Shown here: piece after piece, positions 1 to 16,688 of the stretch
How the letters are laid out: each line of letters begins with the position of its first letter
Numbering within the stretch: position 1 is the stretch's first letter
From: a bacterium
GTDB lineage: Bacteria > Bacillota > Sulfobacillia > UBA995
Length of the DNA stretch: 64,000 nucleotides
Assembly: GCA_031082145.1 (NCBI GenBank)
Contig: JAVHLP010000001.1
Coordinates: forward strand, 301,831-365,830
Direction: 5' to 3'
Notes under the pieces: generated by a model
Seen by the model: the letters and a program-made list of their open reading frames with translations, nothing else
Told to the model about the DNA's origin: nothing
The model's database searches: none
Translations under genes and position numbers: made by a program

Positions 1-997
1 AGTGCAACTCGATCTCCCGCCGGTTGGTCCGGATGAACTGGTAGAGCCGTGAGCCCTCCTCGGTCAGGCGGTACTCCCTTCGATCGGAGACAACAAGCCC
101 CTGCGCTTCGAGCCGTTCAACCCACTGGCCGGGGGTAGGGAACCGCTTGAGCCGGTTCTGCAAGCTCTGCCATCCGGGGTCGCCCTGGAAGCTCTCCAGG
201 AGATCCTGCAGTTCACCCACGCTGCCCAGGTCATCGGCCAGGTCCATGGCCGTCTGCAACTGAACCTGGCGCTTGACCTGCTGGTCGACTGGACTGGTGT
301 CCCGCCGCTGCAGCAGCGAATCCGAATAGCTGCCATAGGGGGAGAAATCGGAACCCCCCCCGGGACCACCTTCGACCGGCCGCAAGCGCTCGACCTTGCG
401 GATCTCGTACCCCTGCGAAACCACTTCCCGTTCCACCGCCGCGCCCAGGTAGAAGAGCACCGGCAGGTGGGCCTCGTCCACCTTCAGCGCCAAATGTACG
501 TGGTTCAAGTGAGCCCGCCGTAGCGATTCCTTTCGACCGTAGGCAAGCGATCCCGAGAGCCGACCGCCGCCGGTACCCGTCTGCAGGTCGACGTAGTCGG
601 CCAGCCGGCGAGAACCCGGCGCCAGGTGCGCCCCCTCCACCCAGGCGAAATCTCGCCAGTAACGGTCAACCGCCTTGAGCAGCGAGCGGGCGACCCGGCG
701 GTGGTCGACTTGGGCTACCTGGTGGAAGACGTCCACGTGGATGACCTCTCCGGTGCGCTGCCGCCGGTAGAAGATCCGGCCCGCATCGCCGTCGACAAGG
801 ACCTGGACCTCGGAAGGCTCGGCAGGGGAAACGGCGTGGACTCGGCGGCTCACCACCATGGTATGGCCCAGCCGCACTCCGAGCCCCCGGTCGAGAATGG
901 CGGGCAAGGCACGGGTGGCCTGGCGAATGGCCTCCAGCTGGCGGCTGTTGAACTGGCCGCCACCGGCGAATCCGGGGATACCCGGCTCGGGCCTCAT
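1..997 (-). CDS. Hypothetical protein, partial (C-terminus runs off the window start). The C-terminal region carries a winged-helix (PadR/MarR-like) motif.
   Basis: Hand translation of the minus strand gives an uninterrupted frame from ATG at 997 to position 1: MRPEPGIPGFAGGGQFNSRQLEAIRQATRALPAILDRG...HLNHVHLALKVDEAHLPVLFYLGAAVEREVV...VERLEAQGLVVSDRREYRLTEEGSRLYQFIRTNRREIELH. The ATG overlaps the stop of the upstream ChlI-like gene (ATGA). It is absent from the ORF track, probably because it has no in-window stop. Confidence 0.5.
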   Translation of the reverse strand, partial: MRPEPGIPGFAGGGQFNSRQLEAIRQATRALPAILDRGLGVRLGHTMVVSRRVHAVSPAEPSEVQVLVDGDAGRIFYRRQRTGEVIHVDVFHQVAQVDHRRVARSLLKAVDRYWRDFAWVEGAHLAPGSRRLADYVDLQTGTGGGRLSGSLAYGRKESLRRAHLNHVHLALKVDEAHLPVLFYLGAAVEREVVSQGYEIRKVERLRPVEGGPGGGSDFSPYGSYSDSLLQRRDTSPVDQQVKRQVQLQTAMDLADDLGSVGELQDLLESFQGDPGWQSLQNRLKRFPTPGQWVERLEAQGLVVSDRREYRLTEEGSRLYQFIRTNRREIELH

Positions 998-2472
998 GAC
1001 TGGACTTCCGGCAACCTCACCAGTTCATCCGGAGGCAGTTCCACCATGGGCCTGGCCAAGGCTGGCGGCGCGAAAGGCGTTACCTGCATGGGATCGGCCA
1101 GGGCGCCGGGAGCGGTGAGATCTCTCGATCGAGACCCGCGGTCCACCATGCGGCGCGCCATCCCGGCCGAGCCCGAGTCGCCACCCTGCCACCCCGCGGT
1201 CCCGCCCACCTTGCCGCCACCGCCGCTTACAGCTCCAGGACCGTCCAGAGAGCGCTTCAGCTTGGCCAGGAGCCCCCCCCAGGAGCGGGCCGGCGTGGCG
1301 GGAGGTGCCGCCACGGCCATCTCGCCAGGGGTCTCCACCTGGCCGTCGGCCCCACCGTCACCGTCGGCCGCCCTGCGCGGCATTTCCCGGTCCGGCCGGT
1401 TGCCCCACTCCTCCAGGTGCTTCATGATCTCGGTGATGGTAGCCAGGTCGGCCCGGTGGTGCAGGGCAAGCGGCGCCACGGCCAGGACGTCGCGCAACGC
1501 TACCTCGTCCCGCCCTTCCAGTACGGCGTGGATGTGGGCCCCGAGCTGAAGTGCTTCCACCGACCGGAGGCTCTCCAGGCTGAAGTCAACGTACAAGCTG
1601 GCCACCAGACGGCGCAGCGGGAGGGGAAAGACGACGACGCCATACCTGGCCAGCACACGGTGCCAGATCTCGCTCTCATCGACGGGCAGGGATGCTTCCC
1701 GGCGGCCAGAACCCCGGCAGGCAAGGATCTCGGCCACAACTTCAACCCTGCCCGGTCGGGACATGCCGATGACGAAGTCGAAACGGTCGGATAGCTGCTT
1801 GCGAATATCCTCCAGGGGACCGGGGTCCTCGTCGGGGTTGGAGGCTGCCCACACCGAGACACTCAGCGGCAGCTCTACCCGTGGCAAGCCTGTCTCCTCG
1901 ATCTGGATGCGGCCAGGTTTGGTCCCCATCACGTCCAAGAGCACGTCGGCCAGTTCGGGCGCGGTGTCGGCCAGCCGGTTGATCTCATCCACGAAGATGA
2001 TGCCCCTGTGCGCCTGGGGTAGGGAACCCGGCAGCAGGGCCGCCTGGGGCCTGGTCGCTTCGGTCAGGCGCCCCAAGTCTACGCTTCCAACCACCGTGCC
2101 CACTTTTGCCGAGTGCGAGATCTCCAGGAAAGGCATGGGGATCCACTCCGCCTCCCACTCCCCGCCCGGCCCATGCTGGGGGCAGTGGGGGCGTTCCGGG
2201 TCGCAGTTGAACAGGCAGCTCTTGATGCGACGGACGCGTGGGAGAGCTTGCCGGGCTGCCCGCAGGATGGTGGTCTTGCCGGTACCCCGAAGCCCTTCGG
2301 CATGCAGGTGCAGGGGGGAGCCCGCCAGGGTGGAGAGGATGGACATCTCCACCGAGCGGAACAGCTGTGCGTTACCGTCGTGCCGTACCAAGCCGGGTGA
2401 GAGTCGCAAGGTAGCCTCCAGTGGCATTTGCCACGCCCTATTCTCCCCGTCGCTGAGTCGAGCGTATTCCAA
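994..2472 (-). CDS. ChlI/BchI-like AAA+ ATPase (Mg-chelatase subunit I family) with a ~150-aa Gly/Ala/Pro-rich C-terminal extension.
   Basis: Walker A GLRGTGKTTILRAARQALP. Walker B/sensor block AHRGIIFVDEINRL...VLLDVMGTKPGRIQIEETG...SNPDEDPGPLEDIRKQLSDRFDF, collinear with BchI/ChlI. LFNCDPERPHC insertion as in ChlI. Low-complexity C-terminus. Confidence 0.8.
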   Translation of the reverse strand: MEYARLSDGENRAWQMPLEATLRLSPGLVRHDGNAQLFRSVEMSILSTLAGSPLHLHAEGLRGTGKTTILRAARQALPRVRRIKSCLFNCDPERPHCPQHGPGGEWEAEWIPMPFLEISHSAKVGTVVGSVDLGRLTEATRPQAALLPGSLPQAHRGIIFVDEINRLADTAPELADVLLDVMGTKPGRIQIEETGLPRVELPLSVSVWAASNPDEDPGPLEDIRKQLSDRFDFVIGMSRPGRVEVVAEILACRGSGRREASLPVDESEIWHRVLARYGVVVFPLPLRRLVASLYVDFSLESLRSVEALQLGAHIHAVLEGRDEVALRDVLAVAPLALHHRADLATITEIMKHLEEWGNRPDREMPRRAADGDGGADGQVETPGEMAVAAPPATPARSWGGLLAKLKRSLDGPGAVSGGGGKVGGTAGWQGGDSGSAGMARRMVDRGSRSRDLTAPGALADPMQVTPFAPPALARPMVELPPDELVRLPEVQS

Positions 2473-2507
2473 CCGAGATCTGGCACGACGCCACCCGGCG
2501 TGGCAAG

Positions 2508-2780
2508 ATGTCCCGGGGGTGGTCAGTGGTGAAAGCGGCGGTGTTCCACCTGCTCGTGGACTGGGCCTTCGGCGCCCTGAACCTCCACCGCCTGGCTGTC
2601 GGGGTGGTCGCCTTAAACACCTCGGCCTTGCTTTTGTGGGAAAAGGTCGGTTTCCGCCGCGAGGGGGTGTGGCGGGACGGCTACTTCTGCAAACATGAGT
2701 TCAATGACTTCGTGATCATGAGCTTGCTAGAGGACGAGTTCAGAAGCGCCCGCGAGAACGCCGCCGGTCCTCCGGGCTAG
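2508..2780 (+). pseudogene. GNAT-family N-acetyltransferase remnant (C-terminal ~85 aa only; N-terminal half missing, motif A degraded).
   Basis: HLLVDWAFGALNLHRLAVGVVALNTSALLLWEKVGFRREGVWRDGYF...FVIMSLLEDEF matches the RimL/RimJ-type GNAT C-terminal beta5-alpha4-beta6-beta7 region. SRGWS sits where the GxGxG acetyl-CoA motif should be. There is an in-frame stop ~18 codons upstream and no N-terminal domain anywhere in the 330-nt gap. Confidence 0.5.
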
Positions 2781-2803
2781 CGGCTTCCAGCGCATCGGCC
2801 GGC

Positions 2804-3241
2804 TTACCGGTCGGCAACCGCCTGCAGTCCCACCTCCTCTCCCAGCGCCGCGAGGAAGGCCAGATCCACCGGCCGCGGCCCGGGCGCACCGGCCAGAACA
2901 TGGCGGGAAGTGCGGGGCGGGTAGGGCCGGCGGGCGAGGCCCCTGTCCACCACGCTGTCCTTGTCTACCGGGGTATCTTGCCGCCAGGGCCACACCTGGA
3001 TCCCCTGGCTCCGGTAGTCCACCAGGTAGGCGGGCACCAGAAGGCAGCCCAAGGCCTGGAGGGCCTGCACCCGGTGATGGCCGTCCAGGATGATCAGCGT
3101 CACCCGGTCGACCAGTACCGGCTCCCGCAAGCAGCCATCCCTCCGGATCTCGTCGGTCAGCGAGGCCAGCCGGTCCTCCTCCACCTCTTCGTGGGGCAGC
3201 AACGCCCCGGTCTCCATAAGGGCAAAGCTCAACTCACTCAC
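2804..3241 (-). CDS. ParB/Srx (sulfiredoxin)-fold domain protein, 145 aa.
   Basis: PVLVDRVTLIILDGHHRVQALQALGCLLVPAYLVD matches the ParB N-terminal / Srx core (DGHHR; compare GGCHR in Srx and GERRxRA in ParB). GTG start 3 nt after the trpB2 TAG, with a GGGAGG RBS 9 nt upstream inside the trpB2 3' end. Confidence 0.65.
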   Translation of the reverse strand: MSELSFALMETGALLPHEEVEEDRLASLTDEIRRDGCLREPVLVDRVTLIILDGHHRVQALQALGCLLVPAYLVDYRSQGIQVWPWRQDTPVDKDSVVDRGLARRPYPPRTSRHVLAGAPGPRPVDLAFLAALGEEVGLQAVADR

Positions 3242-3243
3242 GG

Positions 3244-4605
3244 CTACCGGCCTCCCGCCACCTGCGGCAGCTGGGCGAGCGCTCGCTCGATCTCCTCCCG
3301 CGGATGCTGGTAATCCTCCAGGAGCCCGTCCAAGTAAGCCTCGTAAGCGCCCATGTCGAAGTGGCCGTGACCGCTCAGCCCGAAGACAATGCAGGGTTCC
3401 GTCTTCTCCCGCTCAGCCTCCCGAGCCAGTTCCACCACGACTTGGATGGCGTGGGCGGATTCGGGAGCGGGGAGGATGCCCTCGGTACGGGCGAAGAGGC
3501 TGGCAGCGGCGAAGGCGTCGAGCTGCCCTACCGCCCGGGCGGAGATCAGGCCGTGATGCAGGAGAGCGCTGGCCAGCGGGGCAGCCCCATGGTAGCGCAG
3601 GCCTCCGGCGTGAATGCGGGGCGGGACGAAGCTGTGCCCCAAAGTGAACATGTGAGCAACGGGCGCAATCCCCGCCGCGTCACCGTAGTCGTAGGCGTAG
3701 ACTCCCCGGGTCAGGGTAGGGCAAGCGGCCGGCTCGGCGGCGATCACCTGAGGGCCGGTGCCGTCAAGACTCAGGAGGGGGAAAGCCAGGCCGGCGAAGT
3801 TGCTGCCGCCCCCGAAGCAGCCGACCACCGCGTCCGGCCGTTCGCCGGCCATCTCCAGTTGCCGTCGGGTCTCCAGACCGATGACCGTCTGGTGCAGCAG
3901 GACATGGTTCAGCACACTTCCCAGCGAGTAGCAGGCACGGGGGTCGCCCGCCGCGTCCTCCACCGCCTCGCTGATGGCGATGCCAAGACTGCCGGGGGAG
4001 TCGGGCTGGTCTTCCAGGATGGCCCGGCCGCAGGCGGTGCGAGAACTGGGACTTGGGGTCACGTCGGCCCCATGCACGCGCATGAAGGCTTTCCGGTAGG
4101 GTTTCTGCTCGTAGCTAATCCGCACCATGTAGACCGTGCATTCCAAGCCGAAGAAGGAGCAAGCCAGGGCCAGGGCGGACCCCCACTGGCCGGCGCCGGT
4201 CTCCGTGGTCAGCCGCCGGGTACCGTCGCGGTGATTGTAGTGGGCTTGGGCGACGGCGGTATTCGGTTTGTGGCTGCCGGCCGGGCTGACCCCCTCGTAC
4301 TTGTAGTAGATCCGGGCCCGGGTCGGCAGGGCCCGCTCCAGCCGCCGGGCCCGCACCAGCGGCGTGGGCCGCCACAACCGGTAGACATCCAGCACCTCGC
4401 CGGGGATGTCAACGAACCGCCGGGAGGTCATCTCCTGCTCGATGAGTGACGGCGGGAAGAGTGTCGCCAGGTCGTCCGGGCCCAGGGGCTCAAGTGTTCT
4501 CGGGTGCAGGGGGGGGTTGGGACGGAAAGGCAAATCCGCCGCCAGGTTGTACCAAGCCGTGGGGATCTCGTTCTCAGCCAGCAGGTACTTGATCGATCCG
4601 GTCAC
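3244..4605 (-). CDS. trpB2: Tryptophan synthase beta-like PLP enzyme, TrpB2 clade.
   Basis: [17 protein letters not shown]-terminal signature of TrpB2 and a ~450-aa PLP fold (GSHKPN lysine motif). The likely start is GTG at 4605, preceded by GAGGAGGAG at 6-nt spacing. The ORF-track start TTG at 4629 lies inside the terminator U-tract. Confidence 0.85.
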
Positions 4606-4927
4606 TCTCTGCTCCTCCTCTCGAAGCAAGAAACCCGTCCCCTATGGGGACGGGTCTTGTCCGCGGTGCCACCCCGCTTGAGAAACCGCCTCCGCCCGGC
4701 GGCGTTCTCGCTCTGGGGGTACGGGGCCCATCAGGCGGATGAAGGCCCTTATACCCTTTCCCGGTAACGGGGGAAGGCCGGCGTTGTCTACTCGGTCGGA
4801 GCCTTTGGATACGCGGCTCCCGGGTCCATTCGGGCGCGCCTCCCGGCGCCGGGCTCACACCGACCCCGGCTCGCTAGGCCGGCAGGGCTGCGCCTACTAG
4901 TCCCGTTCATGGCCTATGGTATTTGGT
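4606..4927 (-). promoter_or_regulatory. Candidate T-box riboswitch leader, tRNA-Trp specific (UGG specifier), with a terminator/antiterminator directly upstream of trpB2.
   Basis: Minus-strand leader contains GGGGUGGCACCGCGG (T-box consensus AGGGUGGNACCGCGG; the UGGC bulge pairs with tRNA-Trp GCCA) at 4674..4661. It is followed immediately by hairpin CCCGUCCCC-AUAG-GGGGACGGG plus UUUCUU (4654..4628). A GAAUGGA specifier-like loop with the Trp codon UGG lies at 4831..4825. Leader length ~320 nt. Confidence 0.6.
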
Positions 4928-4934
4928 TGGGTAC

Positions 4935-4953
4935 ACTTTAGCACGCCCAAAAA
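4935..4953 (-). promoter_or_regulatory. Sigma-A-type promoter for the T-box/trpB2 transcript.
   Basis: Minus strand TTGACA (4953..4948), 17-nt spacer, TAAAGT (4940..4935). Confidence 0.45.
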
Positions 4954-5038
4954 CCCATGTCAAGCGGCGGCCTGGAACAACCGCAGTCCGAAACGGGTGC
5001 CAGTGAGCCCCGCAGCCAGAGTGGCCGGGACGATACGC

Positions 5039-6358
5039 TCAGATCACCCGGCCATGCCGGGAGCAGTAGTCGAGGATGATACCGGCGCCGAGGCGGCACC
5101 CGACAACCAGGCTGTCTTCATCAATATCAAAGCCCGGCGTGTGCAACATGGCCGCTATCCCCACAGCGCGGTTGGCCACTCCCAGCCAGAATAGAACCCC
5201 CGGCAGTTGCCGCTGGAAGACCGAGAAATCCTCCGACCCCACCGGCAGCGGCGCCCGGAAGGAGATGAGATTGGCGGGACCCACGGCCGCCGCGGCCGCC
5301 GGCGCGACCTCCGCCGTCAGCACCGGATCGTTCACCGTGGCCGGCACCGCTTCTTGCCAGTCGAGCTGGTAGCCCAGCCCCGTCCCTGCCGTGACCTGGT
5401 CCAGGACAGCTCTGACCCTTGCCGGCAAGGCGGCCCGCTCCTCCGGGTGGGCCGCCCGGGCAATCCCCACCAGGTCGGCCCCACCCGCCTCAACCCCGGC
5501 GGCCTGGGGGGAGAAACCAACCTCAACCGCCTTTAGCAGTTGCGGCTCACCCCGGATGACGGCGGCGAGCAGATCGTCGAAGGCCTCGACGCTCCCCGGC
5601 AGCTGGACGTTGCTCAAGCCCCGGACGGCCGTGGCGCACCGTTCCCGGACCGCCTGGCGATCAGCCGGAGTGGTTCGGCCCAGGAGATTCCGGAGAGCGA
5701 CCCGCACGTCGTCGAGAGGGGGGAGGTTGACGCCAGGACCCAGCCCGACTTGACCGACCGGCAACGGGAAGGCGTGAAGCGCGAAGATGGCCTCCGGGCG
5801 GGGGTTGTCCAAGACCCCGGCGCCGATCATCGCCCGGGCCCCCAGGGCAGGCTCCTCAGCCGGCTGGAAGATGAAGACCACCGTACCCGGCAACTGGCGG
5901 CGAACCCCGGCCAGCACTTCGGCGATTCCCAGCCCGATAGCCGTGTGGGCGTCGTGGCCGCAGCAGTGCTTGACCCCGGGAACCCGGGAGCGGTAAGGAG
6001 CCGTGAGGCCGTCACTGAGCGGCACGGCATCCATGTCCGCCCGCCAGGCCACGACCGGTCCCGGCCCGCCTCCCTGCAGCACGCCAACCACTCCGTGCCC
6101 GCCAACACCACACCGGACCTCGTCCAAGCCCAGCCGGGTGAGACGCTCGGCCACCACCCCGGCAGTCCGTTCTTCCTCAAGCGAGAGCTCGGGATGGGCG
6201 TGAAAGTCCCGGCGCAGGGACACCAGCCGTTGCTTCAGACCGGGACCCCTGCTCTCAAGTGAGCTCGGGTCAACCAGCAGTCTCGACTCCCTCCCATAGA
6301 ACCGGTGGTGGAGGCTACCGGACGATCTTGCCCCCCGCCATGACCCGAACCCCGTCAA
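5039..6358 (-). CDS. M20D-family amidohydrolase (N-acyl-amino-acid / hippurate hydrolase-like). The true start is probably downstream of 6315.
   Basis: LRRDFHAHPELSLEE...T signature, GHDAH metal ligands, ~390-aa core. The ORF-track N-terminus overlaps the upstream M29 gene, and a GGGAGGGAG RBS sits near 6295. Confidence 0.8.
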   Translation of the reverse strand: MTGFGSWRGARSSGSLHHRFYGRESRLLVDPSSLESRGPGLKQRLVSLRRDFHAHPELSLEEERTAGVVAERLTRLGLDEVRCGVGGHGVVGVLQGGGPGPVVAWRADMDAVPLSDGLTAPYRSRVPGVKHCCGHDAHTAIGLGIAEVLAGVRRQLPGTVVFIFQPAEEPALGARAMIGAGVLDNPRPEAIFALHAFPLPVGQVGLGPGVNLPPLDDVRVALRNLLGRTTPADRQAVRERCATAVRGLSNVQLPGSVEAFDDLLAAVIRGEPQLLKAVEVGFSPQAAGVEAGGADLVGIARAAHPEERAALPARVRAVLDQVTAGTGLGYQLDWQEAVPATVNDPVLTAEVAPAAAAAVGPANLISFRAPLPVGSEDFSVFQRQLPGVLFWLGVANRAVGIAAMLHTPGFDIDEDSLVVGCRLGAGIILDYCSRHGRVI

Positions 6359-15594: not shown

Positions 15595-16464
15595 TCAGGC
15601 GCCCGGATCCACGTGCACCATGACGTCGGCCACCTCTTCCACCCGCTTCATGACCACCTCCCGGGCCTGGTGGGCGATGGCGTGACCGGCGGCCACACTG
15701 AGGGCCGGGTCAACCCCTATCTTCAAGTCGACCAGGATCTCGTGGCCCACATGGCGGGCCCGGATGGAGTGCACTGCCGGCGCACCGGGCATTGCCGCCA
15801 CCGCCTCAGCTATGGCCCGGATGAGTTCGGGGTGGTCGAACTTGTCCATCAGCTCATCGGCAAACTTGCGAAAAAGCCGGTAGCCAAGGCCGACCACCAT
15901 GGCGGCCACCAGCGCGCCGGCGAGGGGGTCCAGGAAGGAGAACCCGGCCCGGGCGCCGGCCACACCCAGCAGGGCCGCCACCGATGAAAGGGAGTCCGCC
16001 CGCTGTTCCCAGGCACTGGCCAGGAGGGCGTCGCTGGCGATCCGGCGGGCCGCGCCCGCGTGGTAGTGAAACATTCCCTCCTTCACAAGAATGCTGAAGG
16101 CCGCGGCGGCCAGGGCCAGGGGCCCCGGGGCGGTTCCGGAGAAGCCAACCAGCGCCCGTCGCAGGGACCAGAGGCCGATGTTCAGGCCGGCCAGGATGAG
16201 GAGGACCGCGACGACCTTGCCGGCGATCGTCTCCGCCTTGCCGTGGCCATAGGGGTGGCAGGAGTCGGCGGGTCGCCGGGCGACGGAGAAGCCCACCAGG
16301 AGAGCCCCGGAGGCCAGGGCGTCACCGGCGGAGTGCCCGGCGTCGACCAGGAGGGCGGTGCTGCCCGCGGCAACCCCCGCGCCACCCTTGAGCAGGGCCA
16401 GGACCAGGTTGACCAGGATCCCTACCAGGCTGGCCCGCTGTCCCTTAGCGGCGCGCCTCTTCAT
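15595..16464 (-). CDS. Cation diffusion facilitator (CDF) family metal efflux transporter.
   Basis: TM region with HSAGDALAS and HPYGHGKAE motifs, and a C-terminal cytoplasmic domain. ATG at 16464 with GGGAGG 8 nt upstream. Confidence 0.8.
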   Translation of the reverse strand: MKRRAAKGQRASLVGILVNLVLALLKGGAGVAAGSTALLVDAGHSAGDALASGALLVGFSVARRPADSCHPYGHGKAETIAGKVVAVLLILAGLNIGLWSLRRALVGFSGTAPGPLALAAAAFSILVKEGMFHYHAGAARRIASDALLASAWEQRADSLSSVAALLGVAGARAGFSFLDPLAGALVAAMVVGLGYRLFRKFADELMDKFDHPELIRAIAEAVAAMPGAPAVHSIRARHVGHEILVDLKIGVDPALSVAAGHAIAHQAREVVMKRVEEVADVMVHVDPGA

Positions 16465-16688
16465 GGGACATGCCTCCCAGAGAAGGTGAAAACCCGGGGA
16501 CCTCGGAGTCCCACGGGTCGACGCTGCTGCCCGCTGCCCGACCGGGCCCGGCACCATGGGTTTCCCGGCCCCCGGCCGGTCAGCCCATCGCCTGCTCTCC
16601 AGAGCATAATAGCATGCCGGGCCGTGGCCTGCAACTTGGCCCCGGCCCGGCAGTGGCCCGCTCGAACGGGCCAGACATCTAGGAGAGC

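What the first reader, a model, noticed from the sequence alone, without database searches (positions are those of the whole stretch)
2804..4960. Candidate Trp-specific T-box leader controlling a trpB2 / ParB-Srx-fold gene pair, a possible O-phosphoserine-dependent indole-to-tryptophan module
Seen in sequence:
- A ~320-nt leader on the minus strand carries a near-consensus T-box (GGGGUGGCACCGCGG). Its UGGC bulge is complementary to the GCCA 3' end of tRNA-Trp.
- A 9-bp GC hairpin plus UUUCUU terminator ends 20 nt before a strong GAGGAGGAG RBS and the GTG start of trpB2.
- A GAAUGGA element (Trp codon UGG followed by A) lies ~150 nt upstream, in the position expected for a specifier loop.
- A TTGACA-17-TAAAGT promoter sits at the 5' end.
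- trpB2 is followed after 3 nt, with an internal RBS, by a 145-aa ParB/sulfiredoxin-fold protein (DGHHR).

Established knowledge:
- TrpB2-clade enzymes are stand-alone tryptophan synthase beta homologues. Published work reports that they use O-phospho-L-serine rather than L-serine.
- The archaeal free serine kinase SerK, which makes O-phosphoserine, has a ParB/Srx fold.

Inference: the small ParB/Srx protein could supply O-phosphoserine or otherwise partner TrpB2. That would make a tRNA-Trp-sensing indole-salvage operon. I am not aware of this pairing being described.

Alternative: the ParB/Srx ORF is an unrelated nuclease or defence-type domain that happens to be co-transcribed.
Basis: partly seen in the sequence, partly recalled or inferred. 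Interest (0 to 1): 0.8.

Follow-up and report, generated by a model that had tools for sequence, protein, structure and literature searches.

The report
Trp T-box operon: TrpB2 plus mini serine kinase
A tRNA-Trp-sensing RNA switch controls a two-gene operon that pairs an indole-salvaging tryptophan synthase (TrpB2, a type reported to use O-phosphoserine) with a previously unrecognised, stripped-down relative of the free-serine kinases that make O-phosphoserine, which suggests a self-contained serine + indole to tryptophan module.

Summary
On the minus strand there is a sigma-70-like promoter, a full-length T-box leader with a UGG (Trp) specifier, a UGGC bulge and a strong terminator that competes with the antiterminator. 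These are followed by trpB2 and, 2 nt later, a 145-aa gene. The T-box scores below Rfam's cut-off (67.5 vs 93 bits, E=1.8e-12), so routine annotation misses it.

All 19 closest relatives have trpB2 immediately upstream, and every locus with enough upstream sequence has a Trp T-box. Four further TrpB2 links occur in distant clades. In Crenarchaeota the family sits next to orthologues of A. pernix O-phosphoserine sulfhydrylase, and natural fusions to cysteine synthases exist.

The best explanation is a Trp-starvation-induced serine kinase that feeds O-phosphoserine to TrpB2. No paper I could search makes this link. Kinase activity is inferred, not shown.

The parts
4935..4963 (-). Sigma-70-type promoter: -35 TTGACA (4963..4958), 17-nt spacer with TG extension, -10 TAAAGT (4940..4935)
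   Evidence: 10 of 12 matches; the only site in 2500..5300; shuffles give a mean of 0.2.
4643..4919 (-). T-box leader RNA (Stem I with K-turn/GA motif, AG bulge, distal loop, specifier loop; Stem III; antiterminator)
   Evidence: RF00230, 67.5 bits, model positions 1-219 of 219, E=1.8e-12 for the whole window; aligned with 12 related leaders; 21 of 50 predicted pairs show compensatory changes.
4826..4828 (-). Specifier codon UGG (Trp), within GAA-UGG-A at 4831..4825
   Evidence: aligned to the specifier-loop position. GAAUGG is conserved in all confidently aligned leaders, and the next base varies (A, G, C or U).
4661..4675 (-). Conserved T-box sequence GGGGUGGCACCGCGG. The UGGC bulge (4671..4668) would pair with the 3' GCCA end of a tRNA with discriminator G.
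   Evidence: GGUGGCA(C/U)C is present upstream of trpB2 in 17 related loci.
4622..4656 (-). Intrinsic terminator: stem GACCCGUCCCC / GGGGACGGGUU, loop AUA, then UUCUUGCUU. Its 5' arm (4654..4646) is also the 3' arm of the antiterminator, so the two structures exclude each other.
   Evidence: -23.4 kcal/mol, z=-5.4, 0 of 200 shuffles fold as well; the antiterminator pairing in the model alignment uses CCCGUCCCC; the terminator helix is conserved, with covariation.
3244..4605 (-). trpB2 (453 aa from GTG 4605; RBS GAGGAGGAG at 4620..4612): stand-alone TrpB2-type tryptophan synthase beta homologue
   Evidence: PRK12391 694.6 bits (cut-off 366), TIGR01415 611.6 bits (cut-off 518.85); best solved relatives are the TrpB2 structures 6hul_B, 4qys_B and 6hte_B (E 1e-125 to 1e-114), against about 1e-39 for TrpB1. 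GGLRYHG motif as in 4qys, where TrpB1 has AGLDYPG.
2804..3241 (-). 'Mini-SerK' (145 aa; GTG 3241; RBS GGGAGG at 3256..3251 inside the end of trpB2; 2 nt after the trpB2 stop): SerK/SbnI-type free-serine-kinase homologue lacking SerK's ~88-residue insertion

Best explanation
This is a tRNA-Trp-sensing T-box transcription-attenuation switch that controls a bicistronic, translationally coupled operon, trpB2 followed by a minimal free-serine kinase ('mini-SerK').

How it most likely works:
- When tryptophan is plentiful, charged tRNA-Trp cannot stabilise the antiterminator. The -23 kcal/mol terminator forms and transcription stops about 20 nt before the trpB2 ribosome-binding site.
- When tRNA-Trp is uncharged, its anticodon pairs with the UGG specifier and its free GCCA end pairs with the UGGC bulge. 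The antiterminator then sequesters CCCGUCCCC and both genes are transcribed.
- Mini-SerK phosphorylates free L-serine to O-phospho-L-serine. The phosphate donor is unknown (ATP as in SbnI, or ADP as in SerK).
- TrpB2 condenses O-phosphoserine with scavenged indole to give L-tryptophan plus phosphate.

What is shown: the RNA elements and their conservation; TrpB2 family membership; the specific SerK/SbnI relationship of the small protein; its conserved linkage or fusion to O-phosphoserine-type PLP enzymes.

What is inferred: kinase activity, the donor nucleotide, the use of O-phosphoserine by this particular TrpB2, and indole as the physiological co-substrate.
For: RNA switch:
- Full-length RF00230 match with a UGG specifier, a UGGC bulge and a terminator competing with the antiterminator.
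- The same architecture lies upstream of trpB2 in 17 of 17 related bacterial loci with upstream sequence. It was confirmed with Rfam in 8 loci and shows covariation.

TrpB2:
- Scores above both NCBIfam cut-offs.
- Closest to the solved TrpB2 structures, including 4qys, and carries the TrpB2-type Arg in GGLRYHG where TrpB1 has Asp.
- The O-phosphoserine dependence of TrpB2 enzymes is published (Busch et al. 2014, as cited in PMC11917138).

Mini-SerK:
- E18 aligns with SerK Glu30, the residue mutated in the product-complex structures 5x0e and 5x0j.
- DGHHR and the C-terminal K...P-K-T-(S/T)-R-H motif are invariant or nearly so across the family and shared with SerK.

Genomic association:
- 19 of 19 members of the window's clade have trpB2 directly upstream on the same strand.
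- Separate TrpB2 links occur in L046, L049, L072 and L080. L049 (Saccharibacteria) has the reversed order T-box, mini-SerK, trpB2.
- In 12 archaeal, mostly crenarchaeal, loci the neighbour is a CysK-like PLP enzyme. The representative tested is an orthologue of A. pernix O-phosphoserine sulfhydrylase CysO (E=1.3e-78).
- Natural fusions exist: mini-SerK + OPSS-like (P0063, from three Bathyarchaeia MAG records) and mini-SerK + CysK/M (P0131).
- The logic parallels SbnI-SbnA, a serine kinase plus an O-phosphoserine-using PLP enzyme in one operon.
Against: - No biochemical data exist for any member of the short family.
- The protein lacks about 88 residues (SerK ~117-203), that is, much of SerK's C-terminal domain, which forms one wall of the active-site cleft. 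Serine binding could therefore be impaired or depend on a partner.
- It scores far below the NCBIfam SerK equivalog cut-off (57.8 vs 380).
- Most of the 80 sampled family members (Thermoplasmata, Bipolaricaulota, Fraserbacteria and others) have no PLP enzyme within 6 kb, so the family may not have a single function.
- O-phosphoserine is already an intermediate of the SerA/SerC pathway, so a dedicated kinase is not obviously required.
Confidence: 0.7

Rival explanations
1. The small protein is a non-catalytic or nucleotide-sensing partner of TrpB2: an allosteric activator or scaffold, playing the role TrpA plays for TrpB1. It would not be a kinase. The SerK-like fold would bind a nucleotide or contact the PLP enzyme, and O-phosphoserine would come from the ordinary SerA/SerC pathway.
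For: - It lacks the ~88-residue SerK insertion.
- ParB-fold proteins bind varied NTPs, and a SerK-like protein bound CTP.
- Fusions are equally compatible with a regulatory domain.
Against: - The catalytic-type residues are invariant across about 35 divergent members: PHE with Glu equivalent to SerK E30, DGHHR, and K...PKT(S/T)RH. A pure scaffold would not be expected to keep them. The degenerate N-domain of OPSS shows what loss of function looks like.
- SerK and SbnI, the nearest relatives, are enzymes.
Confidence: 0.15
2. The protein is an active phosphotransferase of the SerK type, but either on a different substrate or running physiologically in the reverse direction. Examples are another hydroxy-amino acid, or O-phosphoserine + AMP/ADP giving serine + ADP/ATP, as proposed for DUF1015 'SerBK'.
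For: - Many family members have no O-phosphoserine-using neighbour.
- Fusions to NTP-transferase and NAD-binding domains exist (P0170 and P0144).
- A bioRxiv preprint (10.1101/2024.10.14.618325, 'GapMind 2026') argues that a remote SbnI-like family can replace SerB.
Against: In the window's clade the gene is always co-transcribed with TrpB2 under a Trp-starvation signal. That makes sense for producing the TrpB2 substrate, not for destroying it. The serine-kinase direction is thermodynamically favoured with ATP (text). The recurrent partners are all O-phosphoserine consumers.
Confidence: 0.1
3. The small ORF is an unrelated ParB-like nuclease, defence or partition-type domain that merely happens to be co-transcribed with trpB2.
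For: Pfam sees only a weak ParB_N match (20.2 bits, below the 26.3 cut-off), and public annotation calls it 'ParB N-terminal domain-containing protein'.
Against: - The pairing with trpB2 is conserved in 19 of 19 clade members across several phyla and recurs independently.
- ParB, Noc and Srx are distant by sequence and structure compared with SerK and SbnI.
- There is no HTH or DNA-binding domain.
- There are no mobile-element or defence genes in the neighbourhood.
Confidence: 0.02

Closest known systems
SerK, the ADP-dependent free L-serine kinase of Thermococcus kodakarensis (TK0378; PDB 5x0b and related; P. furiosus 1vk1)
   Same: - ParB/Srx-type N-domain with the PHE motif (Glu30 equivalent = E18) and DGHHR.
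- The C-terminal segment T-K-x12-15-P-K-T-T-R-H is shared.
   Different: - About 145 aa instead of 242; SerK residues ~117-203 are absent.
- Bacterial, whereas Makino et al. 2016 found clear homologues only in Thermococcales and Desulfurococcales.
- Fails the NCBIfam equivalog cut-off.
- Partnered with TrpB2 under a T-box rather than with CysK, SerA or aminotransferase genes.
- Donor nucleotide unknown.
SbnI-SbnA of the Staphylococcus aureus staphyloferrin B operon (ATP-dependent serine kinase plus an O-phosphoserine-using PLP enzyme)
   Different: SbnI is 254 aa, with a C-terminal domain and a second role as a heme-responsive transcriptional regulator. It is iron-regulated rather than T-box-regulated, and the product is a siderophore precursor, not tryptophan.
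[quoted passage not shown] 2014; S. solfataricus TrpB2a, PDB 4qys; T. maritima TrpB2)
   Same: The window's first gene is a member: it scores above the NCBIfam cut-offs, matches 4qys at E=6.6e-114 and has the GGLRYHG motif.
   Different: In the papers I could search, TrpB2 genes are treated as stand-alone or trp-operon genes, with no dedicated source of O-phosphoserine named. Here TrpB2 is translationally coupled to a SerK-type gene.
Trp-specific T-box leaders (RF00230), including the T-box upstream of a 'trpB-like' gene in Dehalococcoides (Wels et al. 2008)
   Same: Canonical Stem I, specifier, antiterminator and terminator design with UGG and UGGC. T-box control of a trpB-like gene has been noted before (PMC2494555).
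   Different: This clade's leaders score 42-85 bits, below Rfam's gathering score of 93. They carry a long insertion between Stem III and the antiterminator and regulate a two-gene salvage module.
Aeropyrum pernix O-phosphoserine sulfhydrylase (CysO/OPSS, PDB 1wkv) and the SerK-CysK route to cysteine
   Same: In Crenarchaeota the mini-SerK family sits next to OPSS orthologues (E=1.3e-78) and is fused to OPSS- and CysK-type enzymes in other archaea. The principle is the same: a kinase feeds an O-phosphoserine-dependent PLP enzyme.
   Different: The end product there is cysteine rather than tryptophan, and there is no riboswitch control in archaea.

Membership tests
T-box leader (Rfam RF00230) | Covariance-model match over the whole model at or above the family's gathering score | tested here: inconclusive
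   Full-length match (1-219 of 219), 67.5 bits, E=1.8e-12 for the window, but below the gathering score of 93. Related leaders score 42-85 bits.
T-box leader (Rfam RF00230) | Specifier loop presenting a codon after the GAA element, matching the amino acid of the regulated gene | tested here: met
   GAA-UGG-A is aligned at the specifier position. GAAUGG is conserved in all related leaders that aligned. The downstream gene is a Trp-forming enzyme.
T-box leader (Rfam RF00230) | Conserved T-box sequence with a UGGN bulge, and mutually exclusive antiterminator and terminator helices | tested here: met
   GGGGUGGCACCGCGG at 4675..4661. The antiterminator 3' arm CCCGUCCCC is the terminator 5' arm. 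The terminator folds at -23.4 kcal/mol, z=-5.4.
T-box leader (Rfam RF00230) | Structure supported by covariation among homologues | tested here: met
   21 of 50 predicted pairs have compensatory changes in a 13-sequence alignment, for example columns 61:101 (CG 5, UA 4) and 79:99 (CG 8, UA 4).
T-box leader (Rfam RF00230) | Read-through dependent on uncharged tRNA | not testable with these tools
   Needs in vitro transcription or a reporter assay.
TrpB2 (NCBIfam PRK12391 / TIGR01415 TrpB-like PLP enzyme) | Score above the curated equivalog cut-offs | tested here: met
   694.6 bits against a cut-off of 366, and 611.6 against 518.85. The canonical trpB model TIGR00263 gives only 147.2 against 392.45.
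TrpB2 (NCBIfam PRK12391 / TIGR01415 TrpB-like PLP enzyme) | TrpB2-type active-site motif (Arg where TrpB1 has Asp in AGLDYPG) | tested here: met
   GGLRYHG is identical to the solved TrpB2 sequences 4qys and 6hte, while TrpB1 (5ey5, 6amc) has GLDYPG. That this Arg determines O-phosphoserine specificity is my recollection of Busch et al. 2014; I could not check it here.
TrpB2 (NCBIfam PRK12391 / TIGR01415 TrpB-like PLP enzyme) | Preference for O-phospho-L-serine over L-serine | not testable with these tools
   Requires enzyme kinetics.
SerK free serine kinase (NCBIfam NF053625) | Full-length equivalog match (244-residue, two-domain architecture) | tested here: not met
   57.8 bits against a cut-off of 380, covering only profile positions 15-113. 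SerK residues ~117-203 have no counterpart. It should therefore not be filed as a SerK orthologue, but as a shorter sister family.
SerK free serine kinase (NCBIfam NF053625) | Catalytic-site motifs: PHE (Glu30), DGHHR, and the C-terminal K...PKTTRH | tested here: met
   H17/E18, D53-R57, K94, P108 and H114 are invariant, and T111 and R113 nearly invariant. They align to the corresponding SerK residues.
SerK free serine kinase (NCBIfam NF053625) | SerK-like three-dimensional fold, closer to SerK than to ParB or Srx | tested here: met
   [not shown]
SerK free serine kinase (NCBIfam NF053625) | Phosphorylation of free L-serine | not testable with these tools
   Biochemical assay required.
ParB N-terminal domain (Pfam PF02195) | Score above the Pfam gathering threshold | tested here: not met
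   20.2 bits against 26.3. There is no HTH or dimerisation domain.

The most novel reading that the evidence does not exclude
Mini-SerK does not just share an operon with its PLP partner but forms a physical two-enzyme complex with it. In that complex it would hand O-phosphoserine directly to TrpB2 (or to OPSS through the latter's degenerate ParB/Srx-like N-domain). The result would be an alternative 'tryptophan synthase' in which a serine kinase, rather than TrpA, is the activating and channelling subunit. The several hundred short SerK-like proteins in bacteria and archaea would then be a general, previously unrecognised class of kinase subunits for O-phosphoserine-dependent beta-replacement enzymes.
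Probability: 0.2. Interest if true: 0.85.

Novelty: new variant of a known kind. Interest (0 to 1): 0.72.

Why it matters
TrpB2 enzymes have been a puzzle since they were recognised. They bind indole tightly and use serine poorly, and in 2014 they were shown to prefer O-phosphoserine, but no dedicated source of that substrate has been described. An operon that places a SerK-type kinase directly behind trpB2, under a switch that senses uncharged tRNA-Trp, gives a concrete and directly testable pathway: serine + NTP to O-phosphoserine, then O-phosphoserine + indole to tryptophan. The phosphate leaving group would make scavenging of trace indole effectively irreversible.

It also widens the picture of free serine kinases. 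Only two are characterised (archaeal SerK, staphylococcal SbnI). This family has 258 cluster representatives at E<=1e-30 and is spread across Bacillota, Caldisericota, candidate-phyla bacteria, Crenarchaeota, Bathyarchaeia and Thermoplasmata. It recurs next to, or fused with, O-phosphoserine-dependent cysteine synthases.

There are three practical consequences:
- These proteins are currently annotated as 'ParB N-terminal domain-containing protein'.
- Their T-boxes fall below Rfam's threshold, so automated annotation and pathway reconstruction miss both.
- A 145-residue serine kinase paired with a stand-alone TrpB could be useful for making tryptophan analogues.

Tried and rejected
- The default Rfam gathering scan of the window gave no T-box. 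Only the E-value mode revealed it.
- The simple terminator scanner found nothing because the T-run is interrupted. Direct folding shows the hairpin.
- Folding the whole leader gave a weak z-score of -1.9, and folding the antiterminator segment alone did not give the antiterminator as the lowest-energy structure. Both are expected for a tRNA-stabilised structure and neither is informative.
- Literature. No paper in the library holds both 'TrpB2' and 'serine kinase'. The TrpB2+phosphoserine, TrpB2+T-box and other combinations gave nothing that links SerK to TrpB2. The SbnI (JBC 2018), SerK structure (ACS Chem Biol 2017) and Vitreschak 2008 T-box papers are not held. Residue roles in SerK and SbnI therefore rest on PDB entry titles and on my memory.
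- The look-up of encoding contigs for the window protein returned only a 2.3-kb Logan contig, and a distant member (P0050) showed an uninformative context next to thyX.
- The AFDB Foldseek library was not available.
- Several long top hits of the profile search (P0059-P0062, P0067, P0070) have no second Pfam domain and may be over-extended gene calls in GC-rich DNA or tandem duplications. I did not count them as fusions.
- I looked for a TrpB2-mini-SerK fusion among the 150 best representatives and found none. The fusions are to cysteine-synthase-type enzymes.
- I looked for other trp or ser genes in the window. About 26 of roughly 48 large ORFs were scanned against Pfam, all of them in 1..38.7 kb, and none was found.
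Full report
**1. What is in the sequence**

Reading the minus strand from 4963 downwards:
- A sigma-70-type promoter, TTGACA-17-TAAAGT at 4963..4935. It is the only such site in 2500..5300, where shuffles give 0.2.
- A leader of roughly 310 nt from the predicted transcription start to the end of the terminator U-tract.
- The RBS GAGGAGGAG (4620..4612) and a GTG at 4605 opening a 453-codon ORF that ends with TAG at 3246..3244.
- Two nucleotides later, a GTG at 3241 opening a 145-codon ORF that ends at 2804. Its GGGAGG Shine-Dalgarno (3256..3251) lies inside the end of the first gene.

The next gene downstream is convergent, so the operon has two genes. The upstream gene is an M20 amidohydrolase (6358..5039) that ends before the promoter.

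**2. The leader is a Trp T-box**

The default Rfam scan reports nothing here. The reason is that the match, although it covers the whole model (positions 1-219), scores 67.5 bits against a gathering score of 93. In E-value mode the hit is 4919..4643, with E=1.7e-14 locally and E=1.8e-12 for the whole window.

The model alignment places every canonical element:
- the GA/K-turn motif, AGUA, the AG bulge (AGCGAG) and the distal-loop GGUG;
- the specifier loop GAA-UGG-A (UGG at 4828..4826);
- the F-box CCGUUA;
- the T-box sequence GGGGUGGCACCGCGG (4675..4661), with the UGGC bulge.

The 3' arm of the antiterminator (CCCGUCCCC, 4654..4646) is also the 5' arm of a terminator hairpin that folds at -23.4 kcal/mol (z=-5.4), followed by UUCUUGCUU. 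The two structures therefore exclude each other.

UGGC would pair with a GCCA 3' end. That bacterial tRNA-Trp has discriminator G is my own knowledge; no tRNA-Trp gene lies in the window, whose only tRNA is tRNA-Pro(CGG).

**3. The leader is conserved**

- In 17 related bacterial loci with enough upstream sequence, the motif GGUGGCA(C/U)C lies upstream of trpB2.
- Rfam confirms a full-length T-box in all eight loci tested, at 42-85 bits, always below the gathering score.
- In a 13-sequence alignment, GAAUGG is conserved at the specifier position in all leaders that aligned confidently, while the following base varies. L049 misaligned there, but it carries GAAUGGA inside its Rfam hit.
- 21 of 50 predicted pairs show compensatory changes in Stem I, Stem III and the terminator.

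T-box control of a 'trpB-like' gene was already noted in Dehalococcoides (PMC2494555), so this part is a new member of a known kind.

**4. The first gene is TrpB2**

- It exceeds both curated NCBIfam cut-offs for the TrpB-like family (694.6 vs 366; 611.6 vs 518.85) and fails the canonical trpB model (147 vs 392).
- Its best solved relatives are the Sulfolobus TrpB2 structures 6hul_B, 4qys_B and 6hte_B (E=1e-125 to 1e-114), against about 1e-39 for TrpB1 enzymes.
- It has GGLRYHG where TrpB1 has GLDYPG.

[quoted passage not shown] 2014, cited in PMC11917138 and PMC12727527).

**5. The second gene is a stripped-down SerK, not a generic ParB**

Sequence:
- Pfam ParB_N is sub-threshold (20.2 bits).
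- NCBIfam gives SerK (E=8.5e-16) and SbnI (E=1.3e-9) as the only hits.
- phmmer against the PDB gives SerK at 5e-12, SbnI at 1e-6 and ParB at 0.36.
- A profile of 35 family members (A1) hits SerK at E=1.7e-24 in two collinear pieces, SerK 15-116 and SerK 204-241. SbnI scores 2e-12, ParB 1e-4 and sulfiredoxin 0.5.

Structure:
- The AlphaFold2 model is confident (pLDDT 94.8).
- Foldseek puts SerK first (TM 0.80 normalised to the query, rmsd 2.2 A, with a ~85-residue gap), then SbnI; ParB/Noc reach about 0.45 and Srx about 0.4.

Conserved residues:
- invariant: H17 and E18 (the PHE motif), D53-G-H-H-R57, Y76, K94, P108 and H114;
- nearly invariant: T111 and R113.

E18 aligns to SerK Glu30, the residue mutated in the phosphoserine/AMP product complexes 5x0e and 5x0j. 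The C-terminal K...PPKT(S/T)RH matches SerK's TK...SPKTTRH.

What is missing is SerK ~117-203. The protein therefore fails membership of the SerK equivalog family (57.8 vs 380 bits) but plausibly works like it.

**6. Family size**

An exhaustive profile search finds 4708 cluster representatives at E<=1e-3, 1763 at E<=1e-10 and 258 at E<=1e-30. The best 150 are nearly all 120-170 aa. Public names are 'ParB N-terminal domain-containing protein', 'hypothetical protein' or, once, 'L-serine kinase (ADP)'.

**7. Genomic association**

I sampled the 80 best loci from one-genome-per-species GTDB.
- All 19 closest relatives have trpB2 immediately upstream on the same strand. They are MAGs labelled Bacillota/Firmicutes, Clostridia/Clostridiales, Symbiobacterium thermophilum, Fermentithermobacillaceae, Caldisericota and Ignavibacteriales. 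In a neighbour-joining tree they form one clade with the window protein.
- Four further TrpB2 links lie in other parts of the tree. L046 is an unclassified bacterium with a 102-aa ORF between the two genes. L072 is Bathyarchaeia and L080 is Nitrososphaeria. L049 is Saccharibacteria, where the order is reversed: T-box (4770..5012), then mini-SerK, then trpB2.
- Twelve archaeal, mostly crenarchaeal, loci instead have a CysK-like PLP enzyme next to the gene. The representative tested is an orthologue of the A. pernix O-phosphoserine sulfhydrylase CysO (1wkv/3vsa, E=1.3e-78).
- Two natural fusions exist. P0063 (582 aa; three NCBI records from Bathyarchaeia MAGs) is mini-SerK + a degenerate second ParB-like segment + an OPSS-type domain. 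P0131 (436 aa) is mini-SerK + CysK/M, scoring above the TIGR01136 cut-off.
- The remaining sampled members (Thermoplasmata, Bipolaricaulota, Fraserbacteria and others) show no PLP enzyme within 6 kb, so the family need not have one function.

**8. Mechanism proposed**

Shown: a Trp-specific T-box, TrpB2 membership, the SerK/SbnI-specific homology, and recurrent linkage or fusion to O-phosphoserine-type PLP enzymes.

Inferred: under Trp limitation, uncharged tRNA-Trp stabilises the antiterminator and both proteins are made. [quoted passage not shown] The logic is that of SbnI-SbnA and of SerK-CysK, applied to tryptophan.

Two contextual observations fit, although neither is evidence. Peptide-fermenting relatives such as Symbiobacterium are known for tryptophanase and tyrosine phenol-lyase (my own knowledge). 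A tyrosine phenol-lyase gene sits beside the pair in three Fermentithermobacillaceae loci.

**9. Prior knowledge**

- The SerK paper states that clear homologues occur only in Thermococcales and Desulfurococcales, and it never mentions tryptophan.
- The 2025 survey of the ParB-CTPase fold mentions SerK and SbnI but not TrpB.
- The bioRxiv preprint 10.1101/2024.10.14.618325 ('GapMind 2026') proposes a different family, DUF1015, as serine kinases.
- No paper in the searchable library links a serine kinase to TrpB2.

The library lacks many subscription papers, so this is absence in what I could search, not proof of absence.

**10. Verdict**

The T-box and TrpB2 are new members of known kinds. The short SerK-like kinase and its coupling to TrpB2 make a new variant of a known kind. 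My confidence in the full mechanism is about 0.7, and the main uncertainty is whether the truncated protein is catalytically competent on its own.

Noticed in passing
window 16504-16609 (-), with ORF 15595-16557 (-): A NiCo (nickel/cobalt) riboswitch (RF02683, 41.4 bits against a gathering score of 37) lies directly upstream of a cation-diffusion-facilitator efflux gene (Cation_efflux + ZT_dimer). It looks like an ordinary metal-efflux switch.
   Followed up: partly
window 2508-2780 (+): A 90-aa ORF convergent on the operon matches only the C-terminal third of a GNAT acetyltransferase domain (Acetyltransf_4 positions 97-153 of 155, sub-threshold). The space upstream is occupied by the chelatase-like gene on the other strand, so this looks like a truncated GNAT remnant.
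   Followed up: no
L002, L003, L004, L007, L013, L015, L019, L049 (T-box hits listed) and window 4643-4919: All Trp T-boxes of this clade score 42-85 bits, below Rfam's gathering score of 93, although they match the model end to end. Default Rfam-based annotation would systematically miss them.
   Followed up: yes
[not shown]
   Followed up: partly
P0144 (389 aa) and P0170 (422 aa), from the profile search: Other domain fusions of the mini-SerK module exist: with an oxidoreductase NAD-binding domain (P0144) and with a nucleotidyl-transferase domain (P0170). These suggest roles beyond O-phosphoserine supply in parts of the family.
   Followed up: no
L015, L016, L018; for example L018 6523-7896 (-): In three MAG loci (two labelled Fermentithermobacillaceae, one Bacillota) a tyrosine phenol-lyase gene (TIGR02618, 825.6 bits against a cut-off of 720.7; also tryptophanase-like) lies convergently right after mini-SerK. 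This puts an aromatic beta-eliminating lyase next to the indole-salvage pair.
   Followed up: partly
L046 5430-5738 (+): In an unclassified low-GC bacterium, a 102-aa ORF of unknown function lies between trpB2 and mini-SerK on the same strand.
   Followed up: no
L004 4154-4346 (+): A second T-box that scores above the gathering threshold (104.5 bits) lies about 1.8 kb downstream of the trpB2/mini-SerK pair and precedes a leucyl-tRNA synthetase-like ORF. It is unrelated to the Trp module.
   Followed up: partly
window 994-2472 (-) and 2-997 (-): Directly downstream of the operon region is a 492-aa AAA+ protein with only weak Mg/Co-chelatase similarity (ChlI/BchI-type, far below the family cut-offs). 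It is followed by an ORF of at least 332 aa that runs off the window start and has no Pfam match. Both are of unclear function.
   Followed up: no
L019 4362-4529 (-); L013 4302-4709 (-): A group II intron D1-D4 fragment lies near the pair in L019, and a cluster of five tRNA genes lies just downstream of mini-SerK in L013.
   Followed up: no
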